The notes below the pieces were generated by a model that had not been told where the DNA came from, did no database searches, and saw only the letters and a program-made list of their open reading frames with translations. From Spizellomyces punctatus DAOM BR117 (taxonomy: Eukaryota), in NCBI GenBank assembly GCA_000182565.2, contig KQ257458.1: a stretch of DNA of 64,000 nucleotides, one strand, 5' to 3'. Within the stretch, counting starts at the first letter, position 1, and each line of letters starts with the position of its first letter. Of the stretch, positions 16,783 through 64,000 are shown one piece after another. A program made the translations under genes and the position numbers.

Positions 16783-17424
16783 ATGCCTCTTACACACCCC
16801 ACCACACTCGAAACCATGGCCCAAGCAATAGACCAAGAAATGGACCAAGAAATAGACCAAGAAGACCAACCCCCCTCCTACGACTCCCTCGACCCCTCCC
16901 CCCTCCTCGACACCCTAATGGCCCAAGCCCGATCCCAAACCCCTCCAAAAAAACCCCCACACAAAGACGACGAGGATGTCCTAGATAGACTATGTGAGCG
17001 CCTCGTCGGGCTTGTCAAGGAAGCTACGGAAGCTGTTGAGGATGGGGAGGTGGTCATTTATGATAGTGATGAGTTTGAAGAGGATGAGGGTTGGAATATG
17101 GAGAGACGACAATTTGTACGAAGTGTTGAGTATCCGAAAGTGGGTCCGAAATTGGATTCGCAATATGACATGCATACGGTGCCCCATGTGGATTTGGGTC
17201 TACATTGCCATCACACCCATATCCCACCGATAACGCCACCAACACTCTATACATCCCTAACAACGTATTTAACTACCCGGATCCCAATGTTGAAACCAGC
17301 TGTGGAAGCCTTTCATCGGCACGTCTATGCAGCATACACTGGAGCAATAGGCTACGTCCTACCCAAACCCTATTGCAACTGTCATCAAACGACAAAAGCC
17401 AAGACGAGACGAGTCACGTTTTAA
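16783..17424 (+). CDS. Hypothetical protein (acidic/Pro-rich)
   Basis: Long ORF with ATGs at 16675/16783/16816, short DQE(M/I) repeats, AT-rich 3' UTR; no recognised family. Confidence 0.5.
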   Translation: MPLTHPTTLETMAQAIDQEMDQEIDQEDQPPSYDSLDPSPLLDTLMAQARSQTPPKKPPHKDDEDVLDRLCERLVGLVKEATEAVEDGEVVIYDSDEFEEDEGWNMERRQFVRSVEYPKVGPKLDSQYDMHTVPHVDLGLHCHHTHIPPITPPTLYTSLTTYLTTRIPMLKPAVEAFHRHVYAAYTGAIGYVLPKPYCNCHQTTKAKTRRVTF

Positions 17425-17847
17425 TTGGATATCTATGCCTGGGTGGGTATACATGAATATATGTTTTTATAAAAAGAAAACCAAGTGTTGGTTTGCATTG
17501 TAGAATAGTTTTGTTTTTTTAGATAATGTGTAATATAGAGTATATTAGGAAACTATGTTATGTAACTGTATGATATAGTGGTATAATACAAGAATTCAAC
17601 ACGGCATCGGCACGTCTATGCAGCATACACTGGAGCAATAGGCTACGTCCTTCCCAAACCCTATTGCAACTGTCATCAAACGGCAAAAGCCAAGACAAGA
17701 CGAGTCACGTTTTAATAGATATCTATGCATTGGGGGGAATGAAATATTTGCATTGTAGAATAGTTTTTTATTTTGGATAATGTGTAATATAGAGAGTATT
17801 AGAAAGTATGTTTTATAACTGTATGATATAATATGAAATACAAGGAT
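17314..17847 (+). repeat. Tandem duplication (offset 291 bp) of the 3' end and 3' UTR of the hypothetical gene
   Basis: 17314 and 17605 both begin catcggcacgtctatgcagcatacactggagcaataggctacgtcct and stay similar through the stop codon and UTR, with indels. Confidence 0.9.
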
Positions 17848-18098: not shown

Positions 18099-21000
18099 CT
18101 ACACATTCCCTTGCCCCTTTTGATCATCATCATCATCATCATCAGCAACCCGTCGTAACTCCTCCGCAAAATCCCTCCAATCCAAAACACCTTCCAACCC
18201 CATTCTAAAAATCTGGAACCGGAATAGGTATTCATCGAGTGATCCAACCGGTTGAGTATCCTCGATTTTTCCTTGTTCTTTTTGATCTTTTTGATGGTCG
18301 GGTGGATGGGGTAATAACTCTGATTTGGATGATTCCTGTTCACCAAATTCCGCAACATTGCGTTCAAGTTCAACAGCCGCTTTCCGAGCCGCAACAACAT
18401 CCGTTTCATCTTCAGCTTGCATCATAGCCGATTCCCAATTTTGTTGTGAAGAATCAGAATCTAACCAGTCCCGCCAATTACTTGTTGATTGGGATTTATT
18501 GATCCACTCTGTGGTGAAATCACCATCTTGGATAACAATTTGGTCAAGCCGGCGTTTTTGGTTGGCTTTTCGGAGCATGTTTTCTTCAATCGTGTGTTCG
18601 CTTACGAAACGGTAAATGTGGACTTCGCGGGTTTGGCCGATACGGTGGGCTCGATCTTGGGCTTGAGCTTTTTCACATACAAAAAACACAATAAAAAAGA
18701 CTTTTTTCGAAATGATTTACAAATAATGAACACGGTACTCACCATCCATGGCAGGATTCCAATCACTATCATAAAAAATAACCGTATCCGCACCCGTTAA
18801 ATTCATACCAAGCCCTCCACTCCTCGTCGAAAGAATAAACACCAAGATACGTTTATCATTATTAAAGCGCTCCATTAAAAGTTGTCGGTGTTCGACTTTG
18901 GTGGTACCGTCAAGACGAAGGTATAAATGTCCATGTAAATTCAAGAATACTTCAAGAATATCCAACATGCGTGTCATTTGGGTGAAGACGAGAGCCCGAT
19001 GTCCACCCGCGATAAGGTCCCGCAATAATCGATCGAGGGTTTGTAATTTTCCGCAATCGAATTGAACGAGGCGTTTATCGGGAAACGACATTTCCAATCG
19101 GGTTTTTGAGTAACTTAGGGGGTCTTGTGTGCATTTTTGGGTTAATTCGTCGGCAAGGTGGGCGAGATCTACTGTTCGAGGGTACATGTATCCAGAGGGG
19201 GGGAGAATAGATCGAAAAGGATGTAAACGTGCACGAGGTGTAGTGCACGCAAACCGGGAAACAAGATCAGACATGGACAGCGACCGTTCAAAAGGGGTTT
19301 GAATCATGGAACGAAGGGTAGAGCTATAATCGCCAAATCGTCTTGGATCTTGACTGGCTTGGACAATATTATCCACGTCTCGGTATCCAAGTTTTCGGCA
19401 TGTCGCACGAAGAAGACGTCCATAGATGGGACCAACCGTTGCGCACCGTAAATGATTGACCCTCTCAACACCCATCCACCAATCCAATTCCTCTTTTGCA
19501 TGTCGCCATCCAAGAACATGTCGCCACTCTTGTAATGTTCGATACTTGTACGAAACCAATGTCCTCGCTTGCACTTGATTCACATCAGCTTGGCGAACAC
19601 GCGCCCGAATAGCATCCAAAGCCTCCAATTCACGTATCCGATCCCCTTCGAACCCAACCCACTCCTCAACACCAAGATCAACAACCCGTAATCCAAAATG
19701 CCCCAAATCAATCGTATCAATTGACAACAACAATTTTTTCCAAATCAAGATTTCCTCTGTTTCCAATAACCGACCAACAATTCCGCCCTCGGGTATCGCA
19801 AATCCAGTCACAACCGGCCGCTCCTCAAATAAATCAGGGTGATTACACACTTTACGTAATTGCATTAAAACGTTCACGATGGAAAGGTAATTCCCAGACG
19901 CTAAATCCTCTTTTGTTTTCGCTCGGGACATAAAGTCATCGTATAGAAATCTTTGGCGTTTACTTAGACGGCATTTTAGGACATGTTCGAATTTTCCGGG
20001 CATTTGTTTCTCAACGTCGGCTTTGAGGCGGCGGAGGATGTAGGGTCGTAGAACGGCATGGAGACGTGAGACGGAGGCACGTGTTTCATTGTCAGCCATG
20101 TCAGAAGACAAGACCAAAGAAGACGATGACGAAGAAGAAAGATGCCCATCACCCACAATCTGAGACACTGAAGTCTCAAACCACTCTTTGAATTCCTGCC
20201 GTCCAGCAAATCCCCCCTCGTCATAATCACCCGGCATCAAAAAGTACAATAAACTCCACAACTCCATTAAATTATTTTGGAGGGGTGTCCCAGTCAAGAG
20301 GAGACGTCGCTCCGTATTGAATCCCAATAAAGTCTGCCATCGCTGACTACGAAAGTTTTTGATATTATGCGCTTCGTCAAGAACAAGATAACACCACCGC
20401 TTCCGTCGAAAAATATGATGATCCCGAAGCACGATTTGGTAACTCGTAATACAGACGTGAAATGCGTTGGGTTTGGACCATCCTACGCGTTTCGCTGCAC
20501 GCTCCGGGATGGATCCATAGTATGTCAAAAGCTTGAACCCGGGTAACCATTTCTTGAATTCGCATTCCCAATTGAGCATAACGGATGTAGGAACAATCAC
20601 CAGATGTTGGCCCCATACGCCTTTTGAACATGCCAAATGAGCAAAGAGGGCAATCGTTTGAATTGTTTTACCCAATCCCATTTCATCGGCTAGGATACCA
20701 TTCAGGCCGCGCTCGTATAACCCTGCAAGCCAATCCAGTCCGACATGCTGATATTCTCGTAGTGAATGTTTTAAAAGAAAGGGGAAGGGGGTGGCTACGT
20801 GTGTGGTTGCCAGCGTTGTGCCCGTTGGTGCGTGCAGGGTATCGGAGGACGATTTAGTGGGGTTTGGAGCAGGTTCTGTTGGCGATGGTTCTTTATCATG
20901 CAGGGTATGACTCGCAGGAGAAGACGCAGGTTCATCAATGTCCATGGACACGGGTCCACCCCCCTCCTCTTTTGATACGTCCTTATCAGACCTATCACGG

Positions 21001-24000
21001 ACGTCTGATCCGTTCTCGTTGGGTTCCTCATCACTTGCAACGTGTCCTTTACTCTCAATTCCCATCTTGGCCTCTAGGTTTCCATCGATACCGTGTACCC
21101 CCTTGGAATACCCCAACGAAAAAGATCCAAACGATAGTCCACTAGAACCTCTTGAAGCACTCGACCCATTTTGTCGCCATCGAGGTTCCCGAACTTGCAC
21201 AATAACGACCTCATCTTCTTCTTCTTCATCTTCCTCATCATCATCATCACCATCTTCTTCGTCATCATTCTTCCAAGCAGGTCTCCACGTCGTGCGATAT
21301 CTAGACGCGCGTGCACCATCCACATTCAAAATTTCACTCTGGACCTCCATTCCTCCACTACGCACATCACCACGGGTATCACCCTCTTTCAAACGCCCCC
21401 TCCACTCCCTCACCGACTGAACATCCCCATCCAAATCCGAACGCAACCCGCAAACTTGACTATCATCCGATTCAAGCTCCCGTTCGACTCGCAAATCGTC
21501 ATGTCCTTTGGTGGGTATATACTCCAAATCATCATTGTGAGGTATTCTCCCGTTGGATGCCACGTATCGGACATCCGTGTCATTCGAATCATCCACTGAA
21601 TCACAAGTTGTATCGGAATCGGGTTCATCCATTTGATAAGCAAAATAATCATTCCCAACCAAGTGTTCAATAGGGACGTCCAAATCATTTACTAATTCCC
21701 TCATCTCGTCATCATCCGATTCGTCATCCACAACCAATTCAACATCCTCATCTTGAGTATCCACCGGTAAAAACTCATCATCATTATCGTGATCAGGAGA
21801 GACCGATACAGTAGGGGACGATACAACAGTATCAGCCCCATCACCATTTTCAAGATGATACGTAAAGTATTCATGGCCAACTAATGTTTCAACAGGGACA
21901 TCCAAATCATTTACTAATTCCCTCATCTCGTCGTCATCCGATTCGTCATCCACATCCAATTCAACGTCGTCATCTTGAGTATCCACCGGTAAAACCTCAT
22001 CATCATTATCGTGATCAGGAGAGACCGATACAGTAGGGGACGATACAACAGTATCAGACCCACCACCGTTTTCAAGTTGATACGTAAAGTACTCTTGGCC
22101 AACCAATCTTTCAACAGGGACGTCCAAATCATTTACTAATTCCCTCATCTCGTCGTCATCCGAATATTCTTCCCCATCCAATTCAACATCCTCATCCTGC
22201 ATATCCACAGGTAAAAACTCGTCATCATTGTCGTCATGAAAAGGTCCCACAGAATCTCCCCGATCATCCCCACTTTTACTTTTCTCAAAATACCCCATCC
22301 CCTCATCATCCAACTCATCCCTCGACAGTCCAACAGAACTATTACTAACAACATCCATATCGTCGTCTTGGGGAATGGACGATTGACGTCGTCGGAGGAA
22401 TTGGGAGGAATGTTCAATCATGCGGGTTAAGTGGCGTTTACCGGCTTCGCGTTGTTCTTCAGCTAAGAGTTTTGAATGTTGGATACGAATAATCTGCACA
22501 AGAAAAAAAAGGAAGGGCGTTTAGCGTAAAAATACCCAAGGTTGTTATGATGGGAGCACAACATACCGCTTCAACCAATTTCCACCGCTTCGTCAACTCA
22601 ACACGAACCTCCTTGAAACACTTTTTCCATTTCCGTTCCTGAGCCATCGCAGTCCGTTCACCAAGGGTATACCGTAACTCCCAATACTTTTGTACAGCCC
22701 GACTGGCAGCCCGCGTGACACGCAGGCGTTCCCGACCAGCATGCATAAACCCCCCACTAACAACTTTCATTTCCTCCAATAAACACGTCCAGTGCGTTTT
22801 GGGTGGCGGGTCCGGTTTTCGTTCCAATTGGGAGATGGTGAGGCCTTTAAGGAGGCCGAGACGTTTGAAGGCGGTGATACGGAGATCAATGGTCGCTTCT
22901 TTTTCGGCCCGGGATTGGAGGTCGGCGGGTGTGAGTTCTTCGTCGTCGATAAGACAAAAGGAGGAGAGGTATTCAGAGAGGTTTGCGAAACGGGCTATAC
23001 CGAGGTTTAGGAGGGTTGAGCGCGGGATGAGGGAGTCGATGGTTGAGGATGTGGATTCGACTAGAGAGGTTAGGGAGGTGCGGTGCCGGTTGGATGCGCC
23101 GCGCGTGCCCATGCGGTCTGTAGACTGCTGGTGATGAGCGGCAGAAGCGAGTTCGCTAGCAACAATGGCACGAATATCGCAATTTTGCAAATACTTTTAA
23201 AAAAAAATATATATATGTATATATAAATGAATCTTTTATGCTCGTCCACCTTGATAAAACCAATTTATAAAACTCACCTTTACAATCTTTTCCCCTTTAT
23301 CCGCCTTGATCCGCCCAGGATCAAACTCCAACAATGGAAAGTTATGTTCAAGATAATAGAGTTCTCGAGCACGGGTATCATACCGATCCAGTACATGGCG
23401 TAATCGGTTTTTTCGTCGTTCCATGGCATGTCGTTTTTGGATTTGGAGGGCCGAGAGGAGGGTTTGGCGTGTTGCGAGGTCTTGATCGGATTCACTTGTT
23501 GGTTCTTTAGGTTTTTTGATTCGTTTTTTTGGAGGCGTTGATTGGGGTTCTTGAAGGGTTCGTCGACGACGACCACGGGGATGGGTATGGGGTGGTTCTT
23601 GTCCAGTTTTCTGTTCAGTTGGAGGTTGTCGTCCAGATGTCATACCTTCCACATTCTTTCCCCGTAGTCGTCGTCCCCTGCCAACCCCATCATGTCCAAT
23701 CTCATCTTGCACCGGCACCTCCTCCTGACTCTGTCTTTGTACTCGTCTTGTACCATTCCCTACTCGCTGCCCACGTCCCCCTCCATTAGCACCACCATTA
23801 GTCCTACTACTACTACTACCATGACTATTCAAACTCCCTCCACTCTCCTCCAACTTTAGTTTCGCAGATAACCGCGTCGACCGCTTCGCACATACAGCCC
23901 CTTCATCAGACGGTTGTCCAGAATTCGGTATTTGCGCAGTCGAGTCTTTTCGAGGTCGTCCTGGGCGTCGTTTGGATGGTAATGGCACGGGGGTCACTGC

Positions 24001-40709: not shown

Positions 40710-42022
40710 ATGCGCACCATCATTCTTTTTCTCCTCACTCTCTTTGCGACGGTCTCCAAAGCTCAAAACTGCGGGAACACGCAACATGAATTCGAGCTCT
40801 GCGCTAATGCGACTGTTCCATTGGGACATGGCGATCCAGTCGATCAGTGTAGTGGGTTGATTACGGGACAGCCGTATTATTCAAGGTGTTTGTGTGGTGC
40901 TTACAAGGTCCTTGTTTCGGTAAGTTTTCTGAACCGAATTTGCTTGTTTGTTACATGTTAAGGAACTTTCAATTGAGCTTTTGTCACTTGGTTAATCTCA
41001 CTCTTGTTTTCTGATAGTGCTATGCGGCGTTCTGTGCCCATGATGCTGGATACGGTTCGACCATGCAATCTCGCGATGTTCATTGTGCGGCCGCTCAGCT
41101 CTTTGAAAGCCCTGCTCCGTCTCCTTCGCCCATTGTTTTGCCGACTCCGACTCCGTCTCCGTCTCCATCTCCGTCTCCTTCCCCGTCTCCTTCCCCGTCG
41201 CCTTCCGCTGATCCTTCCCCCTCTCCTTCTCCTGCCGCTGACCCTTCCCCTTCGCCTTCGCCTTCAGCTGCCGCTGATCCTTCCCCCTCTCCTTCTCCTG
41301 CCGCTGACCCTTCCGCTTCCCCTTCACCTGCCGCTGACCCTTCCCCTTCCCCTTCACCTGCCGCTGACCCTTCTCCTTCCCCTTCTCCAGCTGCTGTCCC
41401 TTCCCCTTCCCCTTCACCTGCCGCTGATCCTGCACTCGCAGCGGATGTCGGGTTTGCAAATCTCATCGCACGAGCCGAGCCTGAAGACGTGGCAGCCGCG
41501 CCTGAAGATTTGGTGACAACTACGGAGATTCCGACCAAAACTGTAACGGTCACGGCTACAAAGTCCACTGTAACTGTCACGGTTCCCAAAACCACCAGCA
41601 CAGTAACGAAATCTACGGTAACTGTCACGGTCCCCAAAACTACCTCCACGCCGACAAAGACTGTAACCGCCACACATGGCGCCGCTGAACCCACCCCAAT
41701 CGTTGATCCCCTCCCCAATCCCAGCGTCCCCAGCATCCCCGAGATCCCCAGCCCCGGCTCTGAAGAACCGGTCGAAGAACCCAGCCCAAGCTTTGATCCC
41801 GTCCCCATTCCCATTATCCCCAGCCCCGGCAGCTTCCCCGGCTCCGGCAACATCCCCGACCTCCCGAACATTCCCGGCGTCCCCCACATTCCCCAACCTC
41901 CAGCTCCAAGCAGCCGTGTCCCCGGTTCCAACCTCTCCCTCTCGGCCGGAACGAAGGAAAAGGTTTTGTGGGGTGTCGTCCTAGGCTTGGTAGGCGTTGT
42001 AGTGATGGGCGTGGTAGCTTAG
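40710..42022 (+). CDS. Secreted GPI-type cell-surface protein: 8-Cys N-terminal domain plus Pro/Ser/Thr mucin-like stalk; 2 exons
   Basis: Signal peptide MRTIILFLLTLFATVSKA, eight Cys across intron 40920-41017, AADPSPSPSP repeats, TVTVT repeats, hydrophobic C-terminus. Confidence 0.85.
41140..41430 (+). repeat. Coding tandem repeat of about 30 bp (AADPSPSPSP)n plus (SP)n
   Basis: gccgctga(c/t)ccttccccttccccttc-type units, about 7-8 copies. Confidence 0.9.
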
Positions 42023-52793: not shown

Positions 52794-54923
52794 ATGATGG
52801 CCCTTCGACGTTTGCTTTCACATAATGGTACCCATGTCGGTATCCACAGGCGGCTCGAGATTGGCCCTCCACCGGATTACAGCGTGGTCGACTTTGGATT
52901 GATCGAGCGCATATACGGAACCTTTCTTGCTGTCTTGGCTGTGTGGTGGCTGGCCAGGTGCGTGGTTCTGAGCCGCTGCGGTGATTGCTTCTTTAAGCTC
53001 ATTTCTCGTTTTGTAGTTTGGGACTGTACATTCGTCGAAGACATACACCATGCATTGCAGAGGGAGGAGTGTATTTGACTGTCGTAGGAGCGATCAGTGG
53101 CTTTTTGGTTTGCGCTGATATGGGACTCCATGTGGTTTTAAAGAGATGGCCATGCAGTGCGACGATGTGGACAATCAATCTCGGTGTGGTAGGTTTTCAA
53201 CGTTCTTGTATAGGATGTTGAAGTGCTGTTAATAATATTGGTATCTACTTTAGTCCACTACTATCTTGACTATCTTCTTTCGGGGTGTCCTTGTATTTCG
53301 AAAATATAACCTCTGCCATTGGAAAGCATCCTTTTTTACGACCCTGTTCACCGACCCAATACCACGAGATCGGCCTCCAGTATCCTCAGCATCCTCCATC
53401 TCCGCCACTTCAGTAGCAACCTCGACAGAGGGCCTCGTTAGACCTAGAACCAGCCTAGGTCAACAGGACCAACAGCCAGCAGCAGTTACCTCCATGCGCC
53501 GTCGCCAGACCGAAGCCTCAGAACCCCATCTCACCAGCCACCTCGCGGTTTGGGTGACCCTCTTTGCAATATGGACGATCATCGCGCAAGTCCTGACAAG
53601 GCAAAACAGGCTGTGGCCTGCTGTCGATTACAGCGACACAAGTAACATGCGCTGCGCACTGGGATGGGAATATGCTCCCGTGACAGCCTTGTTGGCGCTG
53701 TACCTTTTCGTCGGATGTCCCCTCGCATCTATGAAACTGAGAGATGTGAATGATGCGTATGGCATTCGGACGGCGGTATGGACGGGAATTGCGGCGGGAA
53801 TTCCTGGTTTTCTATTTTACATTTTATGGGTCTTTTATGTTGAGCGGAAGTGGCCTGCAGTACTGGTTGTGTTCCCAGATCAACTCTGGGTAAGTTTTTA
53901 CATGCAAAGCTTCAACGTCATCAACGTTACAGCATCTCACTGTTTCTCCGTTTCCCAGACGATACTGGCTCAGGTAGCCAATCATGCAACAGCAGTCTTC
54001 GTTCCAGCTGTCAGATCTTTTACCGAGGAGAACCGGCGACGGAGCGTAACGCTCTGTCTCAACATGGAAAGCTTTCAGAAAGTTTTGAACAACCCAGTCT
54101 TGTTTGCAGAGTTCAAACAAGTTGCGATCGCTGGTGAGTATGCCCCTCAAATATGCCTACGTCCCAGGCATTGCGTGTCTTACGGTTTCTATCTGCAGAT
54201 TTTAACGTCGACAATGCACTCTTCTACGAGGAATATACATCCCTTCAAGATGCCGTTCTGGCCGCCTACACAAATTCTCCCAACACTACCGCACCAGCAA
54301 CAGCAACGCCATCTCCACGATCATGCTCAATATCCGAGACCCCGAACGGCATAGAATTAGAACCCATATCATACAACAAGCCCTCCGACATTGCACCATG
54401 GGTGGAGGAATCTCGGGATCCAAATTTCACATTACCTAGCCGCCCCAGCACAGTAGCCATTTTCGGACCCAGACGACGAAGTGTGGCTGATGCATGGTCA
54501 AAACGGAAAGAGCCGGTTATTGGATCATCTTCCAATTCTCCTTCCACAACCATCCAGGAACCTCCATCAACAATATGCAACCATACATCTCAGGTCCCAC
54601 GGGACTGGATCGTCCCACCACATCTCCTCGCTCGATTCCAGTCCTTCCATGATACTTTTACGAGTCGGAACGCGCCGCTAGAAGTTAACCTCCCGTCGTC
54701 AGTCGCAGACGTAATCCGCCAGGCGTTCATGAAGAGAGGATCCATTCATGTAGGAATCTTTGATGAAGCAGCAAAAGAAGTTGTTTGGAGCATGTTTGGA
54801 AATACTTTTCCGGCTTACTTGAAAGCCAGGGAAGAGGGGCCAAAGTGCACGGACCCAGATCGGTGGTGGAAAAGGTTTTGGGGTTGGAGACCAGGGAGAA
54901 GAAGAGCCGGTGTTGATGTGTGA
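52794..54923 (+). CDS. 7TM-RGS receptor (GPCR-like TM bundle fused to a split RGS domain); 5 exons
   Basis: Introns 52958-53016, 53189-53253, 53890-53958, 54134-54198; about seven hydrophobic helices with WPC and V.DAYGIR motifs; RGS box FQKVLNNP.LF.EFKQ.A..DFNVDNALFYE ... F....APLEVNLPS...IFDEAAKEV..SMF.NTFPAY. Confidence 0.85.
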
Positions 54924-55032
54924 CGGGACGAGGTACCCGGGAAGGAGGAAGGGTCTTTGTAAGAGTAGTGCGACTTGCTTTAATTTATTTATACGATTAG
55001 TTACAATAGAATAACTTAAGTTCCTCACCAAT

Positions 55033-55105
55033 TAGTGTATTAGCAAAAACAAATGTCAGTGCCTCCACACCAGGGAATAAACCGGCGACAACCGGTTCGG
55101 AAAAG
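55033..55105 (-). ncRNA. Candidate Fanzor omegaRNA scaffold / element right end
   Basis: Starts about 20 nt after the Fanzor stop; minus strand CTTTTCCGAACCGGTTGTCGCCGGTTTATTCCCTGGTGTGG...ATACACTA with a perfect AACCGG/CCGGTT hairpin (55080-55097); the 5' half resembles the SpuFz1 omegaRNA as I recall it, the 3' half is diverged. Confidence 0.6.
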
Positions 55106-55124
55106 CTAATCTAACCAATCTATG

Positions 55125-56523
55125 CTACGCTACGGCTGGAACACTCCTCCTGCTGAACACCTCTGGTCTACAGTGCCCATCCAACATTGATTGCACGATC
55201 GTTAGCATATTGCAGGTTGACAGCATATCTCGATTCCAGTAGCGCATCATCCAGGCTTGCTGCAAACAGTTAGGGTTGGCACAACCCAGCAATCCATGGA
55301 CTTTTTCAATCTTGCCTTTGTGACGGCGCCAAGGTCTTGAATGAGGTCATTGTTTGAAGCCTTTTTCAATGCCAGAGGAACAGTGAGGGCAGACAGATGA
55401 GGTCTTGTACTCATCAAGGAGGAAGCAGTTGATTCTGTTCCACTTAAAGAGGGTGTGCCAACCTTTCATCTTTGATGAGGTATGAAATCTTGCAGTTCGA
55501 CCGGCATCACTCCAATCACCCATCACAATGGTAAAGTTCCCAAACTTGTCACACAAGTTGGATATGAGGTTCGATTCACTCTTCTGATGGTTTATAAATG
55601 CATGCCACTTCCACCACATGTGGGCAGGATGCGAATAGAATTCCTTGCGACAATCCCAATCAGCGTGGCAAACAAGAAGGTAGCGAGTGAAGTCCATGAG
55701 GTTCATTGTTTTGTGGGATGGTATTCGTGATTCTATGAGATCAACTCCAGCTTCTTCCTTCATTGCTTCTAGTCTCTTTGCAAATCGACAGCTTCCAGTC
55801 TCCATGGCTCACTGGTTGGTGGTGTAGCGAAATGTCATACCATTGCTGTCTTGGCAGTAGAGAATGTCATGCTTGTTTGGGTCAATAATGATGACATTCT
55901 CTGCTGCTTGACAAGCAGGTAAGTTGTTCTCCACATAAAGCACTTTGGCCTCTGCCACCACCATGTTTGCTGACTTTCTTGCTCCATGCTTTCCATACTT
56001 GTCTGCTTCTGGGTGCTTTAGGTATACAGATACCGAGGTTCCATCTGTCATGATCGAGCCTTCAAACTGCATACTGCAGCGAGACCGAAAAGCTTTGGTA
56101 CATAGATTGCAGATGTGCAACCATAAATCAACCTTCTCTATGGCTTCTGCTTCTCGTCGTGTGATGCAAAGAACATGAGAGTAGAGGATGATGGTGTCGA
56201 TCCGCACATGGCTTTGGATGAGGGAGCAGTGAAGTGGGATGGCACTGAACTGTCGAAATCCATGCTTTTCATATAGGCTTGACACCCAACAGTATGCAGG
56301 AAAGAACATGAGAGGGTCTACAGCAATGGAATAGTGGCTGGTCATCAGAAAGGGGAATGTTAAGGGACCAAATCTCTTCTAGAAGTTCACTCTCTTCAGC
56401 AGTCAAGTCATCCAGCGATTCTGGCATGGTTTCGAAAAGGAAAACTGACTTTAAATAGCGTAGCTGAGTAAAGAAAGCTTTCTGTGCATCGCTTTTCAGT
56501 GGCAGCTGCCCTTTCCATCCCTT
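55125..56523 (-). pseudogene. Fz1: Fanzor1 RNA-guided endonuclease (SpuFz1-like), decayed and 5'-interrupted
   Basis: TDG.SVSV, RuvC-I IIDPN, GDWS, LLDEYKTSSVCPHC, CANPNC, RuvC-III YWNRD..STCNM, C-terminus RPEVFSR.SVPAVA*; TGA stops at 55809 and 55347, frameshift near 56335. Confidence 0.92.
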
Positions 56524-57123
56524 TGTAATGGATTTTTTATAGGTAGACTATGGTAAAGACAACTTGGGTCTCCTAGCAGGTTGTGTGGGTGTCCGTACTA
56601 GGAATCATAGTCTCCGAATCCTTTCTTTGGGCGTTGGTAGCGACTTAAGGGTGAGAGGCAAGGAGAGTCAGTTAGTTGTGAACCGAGCAGGATTTAGAGG
56701 CTTCTGTGTGGGTGATCAGGCTGTTGAAGCACTCTGTTAGGTTCCTGTTAACCTAAGATTGGAGTTGAGAAGCTAGTTGTGGGGATTTAGTGTTGCTACG
56801 GCTTCTGCCCACGACTTATTTTATTGAATACATCCTTTTTATACAAGATTCTTGGATAAACTGTTAAACTAAACTAAACTAATGGGTGCCGCTGCATCGC
56901 AACTGATTTATTGGTGGCAGTACCGATCTCTTCCTTTTCCACACTGGCTCGGGCCTCCACAGGTTGTACGAGGCATGCTGAAATCTAATGTGCCAATTGC
57001 CATTCTCCGAACCAGTTTTTTCAGTTGCGGTAACCCAATCGGTGGAGTTGGTCACGCGATTCGTGCTTCCCGCGTCCGATTTGGGCTTACTCATGATCTC
57101 TCGAAGACATCCTCATCATTACA
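56524..57123 (-). repeat. 3' LTR (600 bp)
   Basis: Bounded by the perfect 7-bp inverted repeat TGTAATG...CATTACA (TG...CA); abuts the PPT on one side and Fanzor coding sequence on the other. Confidence 0.85.
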
Positions 57124-57133
57124 TCCCCCCTTT
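57124..57133 (-). other. Polypurine tract
   Basis: AAAGGGGGGA on the minus strand directly before the TG of the 3' LTR. Confidence 0.8.
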
Positions 57134-57646
57134 GAAGAGCCAACGCACCGGCGCTCCGAGCGGGGGTGTTGGGATGTCAATTACCAGGTCGGTACCGGAT
57201 CTGTGGGGTCCGCTTCATCTGCATCTTGGTTCACGACCCAGATGATACTGGCACGGCCACTGATGTTGCAACAAAACCAGATTTGATCTGTTGCGGTATG
57301 AACGATGGTACCTGGGGTCACGTCAGGGCCAGTTCTGGTTACATAGAGGGCCGTAAAGGTCTCCGCGGCCCTTTTCAGGTTTGTCACGCGGAAATGGTAC
57401 TCTGCATGCTCGTGATGTCGGGGTCTGGTGAGCCTTGCAGAGGCTTCCGCTGCGTTTGCTGTCCTTAGGAGCACCATCCTAGCTGCTTCAATGATGGCAG
57501 ACGCAAACTCGTGGGCATCATCGTTCAGCCAATCGGTGAACGGAGCCATTTTTCGGCTTCCTGCCTCGTGTTGGGGAACCCCGCGGTCAAGCCAAGCGGC
57601 GCACGGAGCTGGGCGCCCTCTTTTTCCGGGTTTTTCACGTCAGCAA

Positions 57647-60600
57647 CTATTCCAACCACTGCTTCACCACCATCGGTGGCCTTGCTGTAGGGGTCCGCAA
57701 TGTGGTTTGTGAGGGGCTGGCCCACCGCGTAAGGTTTCGGAGCGTCAACTCCCAGCCAAAACTCATGCCCTGGAGTCTGCAGCGGCGCGTTGGGGTTGGT
57801 CCGAAGCTGATGAACCCAGGGTGAACCCAGGTAGCGATCGCAACCCCAAGGCGATCCAGCACGCCCTCGGCCTCGAAGTCACCTGAGTCTTCCTCCCAAG
57901 GGTAGCCAGACATGTACATGGAGGGTATGCTCACTCCTGCTTGTCCTCTGAGATCAGTGTTCATTGTGTTAGAAATGAAAGTTTTAGTTTCAGTGTCAAT
58001 AGAAGGGGTTTGCGAAGCAGAGTGAGTGTGTAAGGGAAGTAGGTCATGGGCGGTTGAAGAGGAACAAAGAGGGGGAGCATGCAGGGGCGTCCTTTTAAGG
58101 TCGTCACCGGCTGATTTTGACAGCTCAGATGCACATAAGCGTGATCGGGAGGCTTGGTGTGGCATTCTCGACTGGTGAGGTAAGCCACACAAAACTGGTT
58201 TTCTTTCTGGTGAGAGGGCGTGATTATCACGTGAGCTATTGTCCGGATAAACCGCGAAGCATTGGTGGTCGGAAGCATAAGCCGTATCTTCCGGGGTGTC
58301 GCCTGCAAGGCTGACTACCAAAGAGTCCTCTACTAGCGCGCTAGTGGGAGCTCTGGATCTCCAGTACTCTTCTAAGGCTTCAGAAGCCTCTGTTAGGGCT
58401 TCCTCTGGTTCCCAGGTATCCTCATGGGGTGGGTATCCAGACCAACATATTTGAAATTGACGTTTTCCATGCCTGGTTCAATGGTCTACTATCACTTCCA
58501 CTTCAAACTCGCCCTCTGAAGCGTCGGAATCCTCCGCTTGTGCTTCTGCAACCTTTTCCTCAGTTTTGGCGTTGACAGGCTTCTGGTACAGATGTAATTT
58601 TGATATGTGAAACCATGGATGAAGTCGTCTCATCTTGTCTGGCAGTTTTAACTCATAGTTGTCATGGAGAGGGTTACAGTCGGTCACCGTGACTGGTCCC
58701 AGCCATTTTGGGGCAATCTTGGACTCATACCCTGCTAGGTTTTTTGTGCTCAGAAGCACCTTATCTCCTCTCCGGAACTCCAAATGTTGTCGTGATAAAT
58801 CATAATATCTTTTCTGCAAATCCTGGGCTTCGATCATCAGATCTCGGATAAGGATGTTTAGGTTGCCGAGGTGTTTACAGAGCTCTTCTGCATCTGCATT
58901 TCTGGTTTCTGATGGCCTTTCGACGATATCCACCAGTGGATTGTGGGGCTCATAGCCTAGGTCCATTCTGAATCATGTCATTTTTGTCACCTTGTGTACT
59001 GTATCGTTGATAATGAATTCTGCAACCGGAAGAAAGGTGTCCCAGTCATCTAATCATGTGTTGACCATTGTGGTAAGGACCTGCAAGACCATTGCTTTGT
59101 CTCTCTCTGATTGTCCATCACCTTGAGGGTGGTAGGCTGTGGTGAGCTCTTGATTAATCTTTAGGTTTTTGCAGACCTCCTGCCAAAATCAACTCGTAAA
59201 CTTGGGGTCATGGTCCAAGATAATAGTCTCCGGAATGCTGTGCAATGGGATGTAGCATTCTATAAAGAGTTCCGCGACCTGAATAGCTGTCGCAGTGCTC
59301 TTGAGGGGCCATACGTGGATCCTCTTTGAGCATTTACATGCTATTAGCCAAAAGGCATCGTACCCTCTGGAAGTAAGTGGGAGCTTGGTTACGAAGTCAG
59401 TCGTGATGACTGTCCAGCGTCCCGGAGCTGGTGGTATGGGTTTCAGCAACCCCGGAATCAGTTGCGGTACCCTTTTTGAGCGTTGACAGATTTCACATCC
59501 TGTGCAGTGTTTTCTGAAATCTTGTGCCATCTTTGGCCACCAGACTTGCGCTGCAGCTCTGGCATAGGTTCTTTCGAATCCGAAGTGTCCTCCCCCCTCG
59601 TGAAAAAGCTTGCACACCTTGGGGGTGCAAGCAGGGGGCACGTAGAGGTGCCAAAGGTCTTCGGAGACTGAAAAATGGTGCCACAGCAGGTTATCTGCAC
59701 GTTGCCAGTCCTGAAGAAAGCGCGCGTTGGCTGTAGTGTAGGTGTCAGGGCTGGTCTCCCATAGGAGCGTGCGGGCCTGTTGGGCTATGGGGTGGAGCTG
59801 GCTGGTGAGGCCAGTGCGGATGGCAGCAATGAGTGCAGGCTGTAATGCCAGACGAAAGACGGCATCTGCCAGTGTTGAGGAAGGTGCAAGAGCCACTGGT
59901 GTGGTGCGCAGCCGTTGTCTTCCGCATTCCGCCACCCATATTTGGGTCGCGGTGGAGCAGAGGAGGGTTTCCGCTCCTAGTAGCCGTGAAAGTGTATCAG
60001 TGACAATGTGAAAACATCCTGGTTTGTGAACGATTGTCATCCATTCAGACCAGTAACTAAGATTGAGGGCCCAGCAGAGAAGCTTATGGTTCTCACCTTT
60101 GTATTTAGCGAGCCACAAAAGAGCTCGGTGATTGGTAATGACCATGAAAGGCAGGCCTTCGAGGTATGGGCGGAGTTTTCCGACGCCCCAAATGAGGCAT
60201 CCGGCCTCGAGTTCGATGGGGGGGGCCTTTTTTTCTGAGGTGGTGGTGCCTCAGGAATGGTAGCACAGCAGGCATTTAGAAGCATCCGGCTGTAACTGTT
60301 CGAGCATGACATTAAACGCTGTGTAGGAAGCGTCACTGTGAAGGGTGTAGGGGAACCCTTTTCTGGGTGCGGCAAGCACTGGAGCTGTTGTCAGAGCCTG
60401 CTTGGCGGCTGCGAAGGCAGAGTTTCGGGAATCGGTCCATGAAACTTCACACGCAATAAATCTGCGCAGACCTTGGTCGGGGCGCTTGCGAGCAAGGCGT
60501 CCGACACAAAAGGGGTCAATGGGCAAGTCCACCAGCGATGATTGGCATAGATTGACTGCCGGTTGGTCTGAGGAGCTAGATTTTGGATGTTGCGAAACCT

Positions 60601-63600
60601 CAAATCGGGCTCCGGTGGCTGTGATTGTAGGGGCCACCACCGTGTCGAGCATGGATGGTGAATTGAGCTTTTCAGTGCCTTTCTTTGGGTCAGCGCGACC
60701 CTTTTTAAGGTCTTGGTATTCGCGAACGCCCTCTTGGATAGCATCTTGCAGGGGTCGGACGAGTTCCACGTAGCGAGGGATGAATTGGGCATAGAACCCT
60801 AGGAGACCCACAAAGGACCATAGGTCACCTATGAATTTGGGTCATGGCCAATTGACTATGGTTGCAACCTTGTCTGGATCGGTAGCGAGACCCTGGGAGG
60901 AGGCAACGAAACTGAGAGCCGTGAGCTGGTGAAAGAGCCATTGACACTTGTCGAGTCTTAGGGTGAGTTTGGCTCTGGAACAGCGGTCGAGCCAGTCCGC
61001 GATGGCGTCTAGGGCTTCCGCGGCTGTCTCCGCTCGTGTATGGATATCGTCAACGAAGTTGTTGATATTTTGCCATTTGGAGGGACCCAAGGTGTCGTCC
61101 ATTACCCGACAGAAGTGCGAAGGGGCAGTCTTGGGTCTGAAGGGCATAAAGAGTGGTTCATAGATGCCGTCATGGAGTCTGATCGTGAGCCATTTGCGTA
61201 CCAATGCATCAGTGATGGCGATTTGGTAGAATCCTTTGTTTGTGTCACCTCCCAATATGTATCGGAATGGGACTGCGATGATCCAGTTCAGGATGTCGAG
61301 CATGATGGGAAAGGGATATGGGTCCCAGGCCATGCAGTCATTGGCTCGGCGATAGTCGAAGGCTACCTGCGGGGGTTTGTCTGCATAGCGAATGATAACA
61401 GGATTGCTGGTGAAGGTTACTTCGGTGGTTCGTTTCCACCTCTGAAGCCCCATCATGGTGTCTCACTCCGTCTCGAGGGCTGTCCGCTCCAATGGAGAGT
61501 ACAACCATGGCCTCGAAAGGGGTGGCAGAGCTGAGATAAATTGAGGTGCATAAGGAATCTTGGTGTAGTTCCCTATGAGATGACCCTCATAGCTGAAGGC
61601 TTGATGGAAGTGTCGTAGAATGTTGATTAGGGCCCAGACCACGGGTTTGGGTTGCTTGAGATCGACGTGGAAATGTTCCGCGTCTTTTAATTGGGCTTCA
61701 AAGGCCCCTGGAGCCTTCTCCGTAGAGTCGAGGTTCCATTTGTTCCAAAGTGTCTGCCATTCTTCTTTGGAAATGTTCTCTTTGGGGTCCGCAACCGAAT
61801 TATGGGTTGCAGTGGACAGTTTGAGGCCTAACGGGGCCATTGAGCTAGCTGCGGTGGCCTCAAGAGGGTTTTCGATGAGAAAAGTTTGGGCTGCCACATG
61901 CATCTGTCCCGTGATTAACATGGTTAATTTAGACTTCTGAGCTTTGGCTTTGGTCAGCCGTGGCATTGACACATCCTTCATGAATTCGCCCTGCTTGGTC
62001 TTGTATGGCGTGCCGCGCATGTGATTGGTGTCCAGCTCATCCGTTATGGAGCAAGGGATAAGGATGTCCAGATTCTTGAGCGTCACCGCAAAACTGGGTA
62101 ACGGGGGTTCCTGAACCAAGGTTTGGAGTTTCAAATGTCCCAGAATGTCATTGGCTAGGATGATGAGAGGTTTCCCGTATGCAATGACTCGGAAATAGGT
62201 GTGGAAAGTCAGGTATTCTCCTCCGTGGCCTTTGAGGGAAGTTTCGAGGCATACTGTCTTGGTAGATGAGATACGTCCACCAATGCCATTGAAAGCCATC
62301 GTTTCCGCATCCTGCAAATCGGTTTCGGAGAACAGAAGGCCCTGGTATGTGTCGGAAACCAGAGACTTGCAGGCTCCTGTGTCTAGTACCACAGGTGCCC
62401 AGAGCTGAGTGATGACGGCTAGCATCCAGCAAGGCTGCGTTTGGGTCTTGGTCTGGCTTTTGAGTACATCGCCTAAATCTACCGAGTAGAAGGCGTTGAT
62501 GGAAGGCACCGCGACCTCGAAATGGGGCGCGATGTCGTTACTTGTTGCTTCCGTAGCCTTGATCGCACTCTCAAAGTGCTCTCTAGATTTGTCATTTTGT
62601 GGTTTTGTTGTTTTATTCTGGCGAGCAACTTGTTCGATAGCCAGCATGACTATACACGTCCGTTCGCTCTCTTTGTGTCTTTGGAGACGTGGATGGTCTT
62701 TAACGTGCAGAAATTTGGGGTTTCCGCGACAATAATAATAGTCTGAGCAAACGATATTGCCTGTCAGGAGAAATGCCACCAGTTGCAGGTTGGCGTAAGA
62801 ATCAAAGATAACAGGATCTTCAGAGCTCCACATCAAGAATTTCTCGCGCTCATCGAGCCTTATCCAGGCAAGGAGGATCAAACGAGGGGTACCATCTTCT
62901 CGGACTTTTCGCAGGATTCGATCCTTGTCAGCTTCAGCTGAGGCAGCAATGTAGAGGTGGTGGGAACTCCACGTGACTGTGTAGGGGTCGTTCCCGAGGT
63001 GCCCAGCGCCTCGCTTTGGTTCTTTGGCGAAGAAGCTGAGCATGCGGGGGTTGTCGCCCATCATCAGAGCCACTTGTGGGGTGCCCCAGATGATGGCTAT
63101 GTTGTCCCAGACTCGGTCCCAGCCCTGCGTGGGCATGTGGGGGTCCTCTTCCTTGGTCACTGTGACCTTGGAAAGAGGTGCGGTCATCAAAATTGTTGAT
63201 TCCGAGTGCTCGGGTGAATGAAATAATCCGATGGTGTGGAATCCTTGATTAGCGGCAGCTGTCCTTTCCAGTTCTGAAGCCGAAAAAAGAGTCTCGGTGG
63301 TAGCAGACGTTGAGTCCAGCTCCACTATGTATGACTTCTTGGACTCCTGTTTGGGTTTCCAACCTGCGGGCATGGGTGCTCCGTATGGTCCCTTCTTTCC
63401 ATCTTCAGGATCTTTTCGGTTCGGGTTCTGCCAGCAGAAAACATTCCAATGCTTTTTCTGACAGAATTTGCAGGGTGCCGGTGGTTCCTTGTTGGGGTCC
63501 GGAACCATCTTCTGAGGGCCGTTGCGACCCTTTTCGGGGTTTCCGGTTTTATGTTGAGCCGTCTGCTTAGAGCCTTTGTTGGTTCCGGTCTTTTGTGACT

Positions 63601-63889
63601 TCTTCTGAGCTTCTGCAGCACCGCTGTAGCAAGGGTCTCGCTTTCTGGTGTCATCAGAGCCAAAATAAAGGCGCAGGAAGTCTTTTAATTTGGTCAGGTT
63701 CGTGACGTTACAGGATTTGACCATGATTTGGATGTCGCTGGGCAATTGTTCGACTATTAGGTCGAAATGCTGGTCAGCGGGACATTCTATGTTTGCCCGG
63801 TCGCCATAAGCGAGGCGCCGGAGATGAGTTTTGTGGTCGATGAACGCGAGAAAGCTGCGAAATTCTTTGGGGTTCTCATGGCAGCACAC
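57647..63889 (-). pseudogene. gag-pol polyprotein, single reading frame broken by in-frame TGA stops
   Basis: Zn knuckle CKFCQKKHWNVFC, protease VLDTGA, RT DYR / GFYQI / MPF / FVDD, RNase H SDAS / ELE, integrase H...GHFG..C..CQ, TDF, HPQGDGQSER, GPY/F-like WLGP, chromodomain EFEVEVIVDH...W.GY....TWEPE. Confidence 0.92.
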
Positions 63890-64000
63890 ATATTCAGTTT
63901 TGCGCTTGGACTTGGTTAGGGGATCTCGGAACTCTCAAAGCAGTTCTTCTTTCCACCTTTTCCAGGTCCATGAGCGAGTTTCCTGGGCTTCCAGAGTGTA

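What the first reader, a model, noticed from the sequence alone, without database searches (positions are those of the whole stretch)
55033..56523. Fanzor1 locus: eukaryotic TnpB/Cas12-related RNA-guided nuclease with adjacent guide-RNA scaffold
Seen: the minus-strand pieces 56523-56336, 56345-55809, 55805-55347 and 55346-55125 join into one RuvC protein. It has RuvC-I D (IIDPN), a GDW in place of the canonical RuvC-II E, a relocated E (DEYKTS) ahead of the CxxC...CxxxxC zinc finger, and RuvC-III NRD. All three predicted catalytic residues survive despite two stops and a frameshift. Established: this rearranged active site defines Fanzor1, the transposon-borne OMEGA nucleases that use an omegaRNA from the element's right end. 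From memory the sequence is very close to SpuFz1 of Spizellomyces punctatus, so the family is published and this looks like one dead copy. Inference: intact sister copies probably exist elsewhere in this genome.
Basis: partly seen in the sequence, partly recalled or inferred. Interest (0 to 1): 0.92.

Follow-up and report, generated by a model that had tools for sequence, protein, structure and literature searches.

The report
Dead copy of fungal Fanzor nuclease
This is a broken, front-truncated copy of the already well-studied RNA-guided nuclease gene SpuFz1 of the soil fungus Spizellomyces punctatus, still followed by its guide-RNA gene, so it is an ordinary relic of a known mobile element.

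Summary
Minus strand 56526-55128 encodes residues 166-638 of a paralogue of SpuFz1, the Fanzor1 nuclease of Spizellomyces punctatus. It is 79.8% identical over 465 aligned residues, and it matches PDB 8GKH at E 8.6e-228. The neighbouring gene is SPPG_05626 with exons at 100% identity, so the window is S. punctatus DAOM BR117 itself.

The copy is dead:
- Two in-frame TGA stops sit at Arg407 and Arg564.
- A 5-nt deletion near 56333 shifts the frame.
A degenerate Ty3/gypsy element abuts the break.

The metal ligands D383, N385, E541 and D606 and the four zinc cysteines survive, but many nucleic-acid contacts are lost.

The decay is mostly CpG-to-TpG. Of 48 aligned arginines, 25 are lost, 24 of them to H, Q, C, W or stop. 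CpG observed/expected is 0.42, against 0.86 for the window.

The omegaRNA scaffold lies at 55105-55033 and the predicted guide at 55032-55018. The scaffold fits 15 of 18 nucleotides named in the published structure. RNA reads of the family pile up exactly there.

The family, its 42 loci (19 full-length), the Ty3-disrupted loci and the omegaRNA are all published. The finding is already known and of low interest.

The parts
55018..55032 (-). Predicted 15-nt guide of this locus's omegaRNA (ATTGGTGAGGAACTT, the flank just outside the right end). The 4 nt before it are ACTA, not the CATA TAM.
   Evidence: Inferred from the scaffold/guide junction. 3500 RNA reads of a sister locus stop fitting at 55033, and one X5 contig stops at 55032 (table 7). 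The 15-nt guide length comes from PMC10432273. The sequence was printed. Expression of this particular guide is not shown.
55033..55105 (-). omegaRNA scaffold, 73 nt here against 75 in the published RNA. It has stem-loop 1, a 6-nt linker AUUCCC and stem 2, and it includes the right-end inverted repeat.
   Evidence: 15 of 18 scaffold nucleotides named in PMC10432273 section 10 fit, given two 1-nt register shifts. A pattern built from 14 of them matches once in the window, with 0.05 expected. The fold gives two stems and a 6-nt linker at -23.4 kcal/mol, z -3.0. RNA depth is 21370 in bin 55068-55134, against 3-8 for the neighbouring gene.
55125..55127 (-). Natural stop codon TAG of the Fanzor frame.
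   Evidence: it aligns with the C-terminus ...VPAVA of SpuFz1.
55128..56363 (-). Fanzor1 remnant in frame -3, residues 221-638 of SpuFz1. It covers WED/REC C-terminal parts, RuvC, the NUC zinc finger and the active-site residues.
   Evidence: tblastn gives 332 of 419 identical. PDB 8gkh_P matches at E 8.6e-228.
55347..55349 (-). In-frame TGA at the place of Arg564.
   Evidence: Sister copies read C where this copy has T (plus strand A>G at 55349: 1052 of 1123 X19 reads), so this is CGA to TGA.
55809..55811 (-). In-frame TGA at the place of Arg407.
   Evidence: The CGA ancestry is inferred from Arg in the sister proteins. The read row for this place was not among the 40 shown.
56328..56338 (-). 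Frameshift: a 5-nt deletion relative to sister copies.
   Evidence: Sister contigs carry 5 extra letters behind 56332 (X1 depth 9.97 of 20.7; X18 2 of 6 reads). X19 reads pile up beginning or ending at 56333 (tables 4 and 6). The frame changes from -2 to -3 between the two HSPs.
56332..56526 (-). Fanzor1 remnant in frame -2, residues 166-231 of SpuFz1.
   Evidence: tblastn gives 44 of 66 identical, E 1e-19.
56527..56541 (.). Break point. Fanzor homology ends here and a different repeat family begins. Residues 1-165 and the left end are missing from here on.
   Evidence: One search finds no match to residues 1-165 in the window. In one search, DNA depth changes from about 98 (56475-56541) to about 399 (56542-608). 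The variant reads at 56539/56541 are plus-strand RNA, like the upstream repeat.
56542..57646 (-). Repeated, non-coding stretch between the chromodomain frame and the Fanzor break. It is probably the 3' LTR/3' end of the Ty3/gypsy element. Its boundaries are not determined.
   Evidence: DNA depth is 3-4 times the unique level over 56542-56800. It lies downstream of the pol/chromodomain frames. No second LTR lies in the window.
57647..63934 (-). Degenerate Ty3/gypsy chromovirus-type retroelement. It holds a gag-like frame, RT, RNase H, integrase, SH3 and a chromodomain, broken by in-frame stops.
   Evidence: Pfam hits: RVT_1 2.6e-08, RT_RNaseH_2 7.4e-12, RT_RNaseH 1.8e-11, Integrase_H2C2 4.2e-19, SH3_Tf2-1 6.6e-09, Chromo 3.2e-09. 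The frames are listed.
52794..54923 (+). Neighbouring host gene SPPG_05626 (RGS-domain protein), convergent with the Fanzor remnant. It fixes the organism as S. punctatus DAOM BR117.
   Evidence: Exon matches: 54 of 54, 58 of 59, 270 residues with 0 mismatches and one gap of 23 columns that I read as an intron, and 242 of 242.

Best explanation
This is a decayed copy of the SPu-1 DNA transposon of Spizellomyces punctatus DAOM BR117. SPu-1 is the element that carries the Fanzor1 nuclease SpuFz1 and its omegaRNA.

In an intact element, the 638-aa protein binds a roughly 90-nt omegaRNA. [quoted passage not shown] The complex cuts DNA that matches this flank next to a CATA motif.

In this copy the protein gene cannot work. 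Its first 165 codons and the left end are gone, most likely split off by a Ty3/gypsy retroelement that inserted into the gene. A 5-nt deletion shifts the frame, and two arginine CGA codons have become TGA. About half of all arginines were lost, among them residues that hold the RNA and the target DNA.

The damage is dominated by C-to-T changes at CpG. That is the mark of deamination of 5-methylcytosine in a silenced, methylated repeat.

The omegaRNA gene in the 3' flank is much better kept. Whether it is still transcribed and used by SpuFz1 protein from intact sister copies is open.

Shown: identity, breaks, truncation, mutation spectrum, position and shape of the scaffold, and abundant family RNA at the scaffold.

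Inferred: the Ty3 insertion as the cause of the truncation, 5mC as the cause of the spectrum, and the guide coordinates.
For: Identity:
- PDB 8gkh_P (MBP-SpuFz1) matches at E 8.6e-228, and PpFz1 9cf0_P at 7.4e-39.
- 52 homologues were found, 23 of them named S. punctatus DAOM BR117, the best at 79-80% identity.
- P0003 carries D383, N385, E541 and D606 at the numbers given in the paper.
- 371 of 465 aligned residues are identical, over residues 166-638.

Organism: the exons of SPPG_05626 match at 100%.

Breaks: two TGA stops, the 5-nt deletion (table 4) and no match to residues 1-165.

Ty3/gypsy domains lie directly upstream on the same strand.

Residues kept:
- 4 of 4 metal ligands.
- 4 of 4 zinc cysteines.
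- 20 of 25 scaffold contacts.
- 2 of 13 heteroduplex contacts.
- 2 of 6 TAM contacts.

Mutation spectrum:
- In the DNA run X19, 127 places have 40% or more of the reads differing from the window. At 85 of them the window has A or T where sisters have G or C; 18 go the other way and 24 are transversions.
- Of the 40 rows shown (of 196), 32 are such changes, and 29 of the 32 lie in an ancestral CpG.
- Of 48 arginines, 23 are kept. The losses are 9 H, 6 Q, 5 C, 2 W, 2 stop and 1 L.
- CpG observed/expected is 0.42, against 0.86 for the window.
- Passages read in PMC12695648 state that in Spizellomyces 5mC is confined to transposons.

omegaRNA: as listed under parts.

Literature read as sections or passages:
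- PMC10432273: 42 Fz loci, of which 19 are full-length; 11 loci hold further genes, including Ty3/gypsy inserted 'in the Fz gene'; a 75-nt scaffold plus a 14-15-nt guide; TAM CATA.
- PMC3627910: SPu-1 is about 2.1 kb, with 33-bp TIRs and putative TA duplications.
Against: - The local Pfam copy gives no significant hit. The best is Cas12f1-like_TNB at E 0.081, below the cut-off, and there is nothing for the joined frame or for SpuFz1 itself. Family assignment therefore rests on PDB and protein-database matches.
- No Rfam family covers the RNA.
- The fit of the scaffold to the published numbering needs two 1-nt register shifts that I chose after seeing the sequence. Only the one behind 55065 is backed by sister reads. 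Three named nucleotides do not fit: G22 is C, C40 is U and G70 is A.
- The other half of the Fanzor gene, the Ty3 5' LTR and any target-site duplication lie outside the window. Insertion therefore cannot be told from deletion or rearrangement.
- In the ChIP run X19 the window's private letters are almost absent (for example 3 of 525 reads at 55666 and 0 of 212 at 56647), although the flank is at normal depth. This is unexplained, though X1 contigs do carry those letters.
- I could not see the paper's supplementary locus lists. That this locus is one of the 42 is an inference.
Confidence: 0.93

Rival explanations
1. Dead nuclease, live guide. The omegaRNA gene of this locus (55105-55018) is still transcribed and loaded in trans by SpuFz1 from intact copies. 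The remnant would then behave like the published 'ghost' SPu-1 elements, which have no Fanzor gene. This adds to the best explanation rather than excluding it.
For: The scaffold keeps 15 of 18 named nucleotides, including all named contacts of nt 5-20, the linker, and A72/A75. The two changes at C40/G70 keep a U-A pair and lie at the edge of the part the paper found dispensable. At 55065, 1837 of 10767 RNA reads carry neither the sister's extra G (4957 reads) nor the clipped form (3973 reads), so they are collinear with this copy. The paper shows that ghost omegaRNAs work with SpuFz1.
Against: No read could be assigned to this locus alone. The bins do not resolve 55018-55032, and the rows for the scaffold were among the 156 not shown. 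Over the adjoining reading frame, 0 of 66, 0 of 27, 0 of 18 and 0 of 14 RNA reads carry this copy's letters at 55225, 55280, 55319 and 55349. The numbers are small, so this is weak. The CpG decay and the near absence of the copy from the ChIP reads suggest silent chromatin.
Confidence: 0.25
2. The gene is still functional. The two TGA codons would be read through or spliced out, the frameshift bypassed, and a shorter N-terminus used.
For: The metal ligands and zinc cysteines are all kept. Some annotated sister proteins are also short, for example 492 and 392 aa.
Against: Both TGAs replace conserved arginines inside conserved blocks, with no intron-like gap in the alignment. The missing 165 residues hold TAM and guide contacts H21, T22, K25, R96, Q129, Q130, N133, Q148 and R157. 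Only 2 of 13 heteroduplex contacts remain. 24 of the 25 lost arginines follow the neutral CpG-decay pattern. No protein in the database matches this locus exactly; the best is 80%.
Confidence: 0.02
3. The 5' truncation is not due to the Ty3/gypsy element inserting into the gene. It would be due to an unrelated deletion or rearrangement, or the Fanzor copy was already truncated when it arrived next to the retroelement.
For: Neither the second LTR, a target-site duplication nor the other Fanzor half is in the window. The retroelement extends beyond 63934. The Fanzor remnant has lost more CpG (o/e 0.42) than the retroelement (0.58-0.82), so the two differ in age or methylation history.
Against: The retroelement's 3' end abuts the break within about 15 nt, on the same strand. 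The paper reports Ty3/gypsy inserted in the Fz gene at some loci.
Confidence: 0.3

Closest known systems
SpuFz1 (SPPG_07727, PDB 8GKH; Saito et al. 2023, PMC10432273) and its paralogues in S. punctatus DAOM BR117
   Same: It comes from the same genome and the same family. It is 79.8% identical over residues 166-638, close to the roughly 82% the paper gives for identity among SpuFz1 proteins. It has the same D383/N385/E541/D606 site, the same CCCC zinc finger and the same omegaRNA architecture in the 3' flank.
   Different: It lacks residues 1-165 and has two premature stops and a frameshift. Only 23 of 48 arginines are kept. The scaffold is 2 nt shorter, with C40U and G70A. It cannot encode an active nuclease.
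SPu-1 transposon (Bao and Jurka 2013, PMC3627910), the prototype Fanzor1 element
   Same: A single-ORF element with a right end that reads ...CACTA. The final TA fits the putative TA target duplication. Together with the conserved CA upstream of the left end, an empty site would read CATA plus guide, which is the published TAM (my inference).
   Different: The left inverted repeat is absent from the window. The element is interrupted or truncated at codon 166.
Ghost SPu-1 elements (134 loci without a Fanzor gene, PMC10432273)
   Same: A guide-RNA module is present without a working nuclease gene in cis.
   Different: Ghosts are about 550-nt elements with both inverted repeats and a distinct stem 2. 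This locus keeps 1.4 kb of decayed coding sequence and has a Fanzor-locus position for the scaffold, 19 nt after the stop codon.
Bacterial IS200/IS605 TnpB with its omegaRNA (for example ISDra2)
   Same: An RNA-guided RuvC nuclease whose guide RNA is read from the transposon's right end into the flank.
   Different: Here the RuvC-II glutamate is shifted to 6-7 residues before the zinc finger. There is no pseudoknot in the RNA, the REC domain is larger, and the host is a eukaryote.

Membership tests
Fanzor1 (SpuFz1 / SPu-1 family) | Significant full-domain sequence similarity to an experimentally characterised Fanzor1 | tested here: met
   8gkh_P matches at E 8.6e-228 over query 6-417. 371 of 465 residues are identical to P0003.
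Fanzor1 (SpuFz1 / SPu-1 family) | RuvC-I aspartate in a DPG/DPN motif | tested here: met
   IIDPN is present, with the D383 codon at 55883-55881 and N385 at 55877-55875. SpuFz1 itself has DPN rather than the DPG named.
Fanzor1 (SpuFz1 / SPu-1 family) | C-terminally shifted RuvC-II glutamate a few residues before the zinc finger | tested here: met
   In LDEYKTSSVCPHC, E541 lies 7 residues before C548. The feature is described and is shared with Fanzor2 and pro-Fanzor TnpBs.
Fanzor1 (SpuFz1 / SPu-1 family) | RuvC-III aspartate and CCCC zinc finger | tested here: met
   D606 (NRD) and C548, C551, C586 and C591 are all kept.
Fanzor1 (SpuFz1 / SPu-1 family) | Complete open reading frame of about 630 aa with the N-terminal WED/REC parts | tested here: not met
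   Residues 1-165 are absent from the window. There are two TGA stops and one 5-nt deletion. It is a pseudogene of the family, not a working member.
Fanzor1 (SpuFz1 / SPu-1 family) | [quoted passage not shown] | tested here: met
   The scaffold lies at 55105-55033. 15 of 18 named nucleotides fit, the pattern is unique, the fold shows two stems and a 6-nt linker, and family RNA piles up there with its edge at 55033.
Fanzor1 (SpuFz1 / SPu-1 family) | Both terminal inverted repeats, with CA upstream of the left one | tested here: not met
   No inverted repeat pair was found in the window and there is no left part of the element. It may lie beyond 64000.
Fanzor1 (SpuFz1 / SPu-1 family) | RNA-guided, TAM-dependent DNA cleavage | not testable with these tools
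   This needs biochemistry. It is not expected for this copy, given the breaks.
Ty3/gypsy chromovirus-type LTR retroelement (the upstream neighbour) | RT, RNase H, integrase and a C-terminal chromodomain in that order on one strand | tested here: met
   Pfam hits, on the minus strand 61462 down to 57647, interrupted by stops.
Ty3/gypsy chromovirus-type LTR retroelement (the upstream neighbour) | A pair of long terminal repeats | tested here: inconclusive
   No long direct repeat lies in the window. The 5' end of the element runs off the window.

The most novel reading that the evidence does not exclude
The remnant is a natural 'guide-only' relic. Its omegaRNA, whose protein-contacting nucleotides are intact, would still be made and loaded by SpuFz1 from sister copies, while the coding part has been methylated and eroded at CpG. 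This would show that the host's 5mC silencing and the Ty3 hit killed the nuclease gene but not the guide module. It would also offer a dated series (this copy, partial copies, ghosts) for how ghost elements arise from full Fanzor loci.
Probability: 0.15. Interest if true: 0.35.

Novelty: already known. Interest (0 to 1): 0.12.

Why it matters
It matters little beyond annotation. SPu-1/SpuFz1 is the prototype Fanzor, described in 2013. Its RNA-guided cleavage, omegaRNA, TAM and structures were published in 2023-2024, and the same paper counts partial and Ty3-disrupted loci in this very genome.

The useful by-products are:
- An exact map of one such relic.
- A clean example of CpG-to-TpG erosion in a chytrid transposon. 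It agrees with the report that 5mC in Spizellomyces is confined to transposons.
- The observation that the guide-RNA module outlives the nuclease gene.

Tried and rejected
- Pfam on the four pieces, on the joined frame and on SpuFz1 itself gave nothing above the cut-offs. The database lists PF26935 for the sisters, but the local library did not return it.
- Rfam at E up to 1 over 54600-56800 gave no family.
- The whole-genome search was not possible, because no genome is held for this window.
- A search for a second copy, a ghost element or the missing N-terminal part inside the window found nothing.
- The first attempt to name the organism, with frame 54138-54920, found nothing in the length range searched. 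The second query worked.
- SPPG_09290, which lies on a contig of the same length, is a different and more distant copy (58%), not a gene model of this locus.
- The look-up of sequencing runs listed no RNA holder of the stretch. This says nothing about expression.
- Locus-specific expression of the omegaRNA could not be read, because likeness was set to 80 to see the sisters.
- I considered RIP-like mutation. It is rejected as the main process because 29 of 32 shown transitions are at CpG and only 3 at CpA.
- I did not run a structure prediction. With 80% identity to a solved structure it would add nothing.

Full report
**What is there**

The last three are one frame, cut by TGA at 55811-55809 and by TGA at 55349-55347, and ended by TAG at 55127-55125.

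Read through with X at the stops, the 417-residue frame matches the MBP-SpuFz1 chain of PDB 8GKH at E 8.6e-228. It matches Parasitella Fanzor1 (9CF0) at 7.4e-39.

In the large protein database, 52 proteins match at E 1e-5 or better. Of these, 23 are named Spizellomyces punctatus DAOM BR117, and six of those are 600 aa or longer. P0003 (SPPG_07727, 638 aa) has D383, N385, E541 and D606 exactly at the numbers the structure paper gives, so I take it as SpuFz1.

tblastn of P0003 on the window gives residues 221-638 at 56363-55128 (frame -3, 332 of 419 identical). It gives residues 166-231 at 56523-56332 (frame -2, 44 of 66 identical). Nothing matches residues 1-165 apart from noise at E 2.6 or worse.

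**Whose genome**

The gene just downstream on the plus strand is SPPG_05626, an RGS-domain protein. Its exons match the window at 54 of 54, 58 of 59 and 242 of 242 residues, plus 270 residues with no mismatch and one gap of 23 columns that I read as an intron. The window is therefore S. punctatus DAOM BR117.

No database protein equals this Fanzor locus; the best is 80%. SPPG_09290, which lies on a contig of the same length, is another and more distant copy.

**How it is broken**

- The first 165 residues and the left end of the element are absent from the window.
- A 5-nt deletion near 56333 shifts the frame. Sister contigs carry five extra letters behind 56332, and DNA reads pile up at 56333 (tables 4 and 6).
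- Two TGA codons stand where SpuFz1 has R407 and R564. For the second, 1052 of 1123 DNA reads from sister copies read the C of a CGA codon (row 55349).

Residue bookkeeping against the contacts named in the paper gives the following:

| Class of residue | Kept |
|---|---|
| Metal ligands | 4 of 4 |
| Zinc cysteines | 4 of 4 |
| omegaRNA scaffold contacts | 20 of 25 |
| Guide/target heteroduplex contacts | 2 of 13 |
| TAM contacts | 2 of 6 |

**How it decayed**

I laid a DNA run at 80% likeness, so that sister copies align. At 127 places, 40% or more of the reads differ from the window:
- At 85 places the window has A or T where the sisters have G or C.
- At 18 places the difference goes the other way.
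- 24 places are transversions.

Of the 40 rows printed (of 196), 32 are of the first kind, and 29 of the 32 sit in an ancestral CpG.

At protein level, 48 arginines of SpuFz1 are aligned and 23 are kept. The 25 losses are 9 H, 6 Q, 5 C, 2 W, 2 stop and 1 L. The first 24 are each one transition away from a CGN codon.

CpG observed/expected is 0.42 in the remnant against 0.86 in the window, with TpG/CpA raised to 1.45.

This is the signature of 5-methylcytosine deamination. Passages read in PMC12695648 say that in Spizellomyces 5mC is confined to transposons. A RIP-like CpA preference is not seen. Methylation of this copy is an inference; I have no methylation data.

**What cut off the front**

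Directly upstream on the same strand lies a degenerate Ty3/gypsy element. It has a gag-like frame, RT, RNase H, integrase zinc domain, SH3 and chromodomain, from 63934 down to 57647, with in-frame stops.

It is followed by about 1.1 kb of non-coding repeat, present at 3-4 times unique DNA depth. This repeat ends within about 15 nt of the point where Fanzor homology begins.

The paper reports 11 Fz loci holding further genes, including Ty3/gypsy inserted 'in the Fz gene' (section read). Insertion into the gene is thus the likeliest cause. However, the second LTR and the other half of the gene would lie beyond 64000 (one search finds no LTR pair), so this is not shown.

**The guide RNA**

[quoted passage not shown] Its section 10 names 18 scaffold nucleotides.

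I set nucleotide 1 at 55105.
- U5, C6, C7 and U16-G20 all fit (8 of 8). G22 does not; the window has C there.
- With one nucleotide fewer between 20 and 29, A29, C32, C34, U35 and G37 fit (5 of 5). C40 is U.
- With one more nucleotide missing behind 55065, A72 and A75 fit. G70 is A.
- In total, 15 of 18 fit.

I chose the two shifts after seeing the sequence. The second is independently supported: sister reads carry an extra G behind 55065 (4957 of 10767 RNA reads; 29 of 240 DNA reads).

A pattern of 14 named nucleotides matches once in 64 kb, with 0.05 expected. The 73-nt stretch folds into a stem-loop, a 6-nt linker AUUCCC and a long second stem at -23.4 kcal/mol, z -3.0. That is the published layout. 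The U at 40 pairs with the A at 70.

RNA reads of the family reach a depth of 21370 in 55068-55134 and 5660 in 55001-55067, on the strand of the Fanzor frame. The depth is 109 falling to 0 over the coding part, and 3-8 for the neighbouring gene. I set the strand sense from the neighbouring plus-strand gene and from the published sense of the omegaRNA.

The reads stop fitting at 55033 (3500 reads) and at 55106-55113 (24211 reads in three piles). These are the two ends of the scaffold.

The guide of this locus should therefore be 55032-55018. The four letters before it are ACTA, not CATA, so the occupied site would not be cut.

SPu-1 has putative TA duplications and a conserved CA before the left end. 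An empty site would therefore read CATA plus the guide match. This last point is my inference.

**What stays open**

- Whether this locus's own omegaRNA is made cannot be read, since likeness was set low to see the sisters.
- Over the coding part, none of the RNA reads at five checked places carry this copy's letters, but the numbers are small (66, 27, 18, 14, 14).
- One result is unexplained. In the ChIP DNA run, the window's private letters are almost never read (3 of 525, 1 of 159, 3 of 105, 0 of 212 at four places), although the unique flank has normal depth. Contigs of another run of the same organism label do carry them. A ChIP target that favours active chromatin would explain it, and would agree with a silent, methylated copy, but the target is unknown to me.

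**Comparison and verdict**

This is a pseudogene of the SpuFz1/SPu-1 family in the very genome where Fanzor was first found (PMC3627910, passages) and later shown to be an RNA-guided nuclease (PMC10432273, sections 7 and 10 and passages; PMC11423790, passages). It meets the sequence and RNA criteria of the family. It fails the criteria of a complete frame and of two inverted repeats.

The shifted RuvC-II glutamate is real, but it is shared with Fanzor2 and related TnpBs, so it does not define Fanzor1 alone.

The finding is correct and already known. I could not open the paper's supplementary locus lists, which probably include this locus.

Noticed in passing
window 57647-63934 (minus strand): A Ty3/gypsy chromovirus-type retroelement with gag-like frame, RT, RNase H, integrase, SH3 and chromodomain. 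It is broken by in-frame stops. CpG observed/expected is 0.58-0.75, so it is less eroded than the Fanzor remnant (0.42). Its 5' end runs off the window.
   Followed up: partly
window 56542-56800: This repeat, presumed to be LTR, is transcribed on the plus strand at depth 157-625 in the RNA run X18. That is antisense to the retroelement's coding frames. The reads are family-wide at 80% likeness, and none carry the window's letter at 56647 (0 of 344).
   Followed up: no
window 55100-56800, run X19: The window's private letters are nearly absent from the ChIP DNA reads, although the flank has normal depth. Contigs of run X1 do carry them. The locus may be silent chromatin depleted by the ChIP; this is unresolved.
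   Followed up: partly
window 55033-55067: At least three sister omegaRNA classes are visible in the RNA reads. One is collinear with this copy down to 55033 but has an extra G behind 55065 and its own roughly 15-nt 3' extension (3500 reads). Two diverge at 55067 inside stem 2, with conserved but different continuations. These may be the canonical and ghost scaffold types of the paper.
   Followed up: partly
window 54921-55032: The element's right end sits only about 95 nt from the stop codon of the convergent gene SPPG_05626. A contig of run X5 that covers the gene's 3' end with no differences stops at 55025, inside the predicted guide. The transposon therefore landed at the very end of that gene's transcript.
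   Followed up: no
window 21634-22299: Three tandem copies of a 222-nt unit (91% and 69% to the first) lie inside a 1267-aa open frame (18717-22520, minus strand). This is presumably a protein with 74-residue repeats.
   Followed up: no
window 41116-41463: A run of 12/18-nt periodic repeats lies inside open frames on both strands (41018-42022). It is probably a low-complexity coding repeat.
   Followed up: no
window 17314-17425 and 17605-17716: Two 112-nt direct repeats, 97% alike and 291 nt apart.
   Followed up: no
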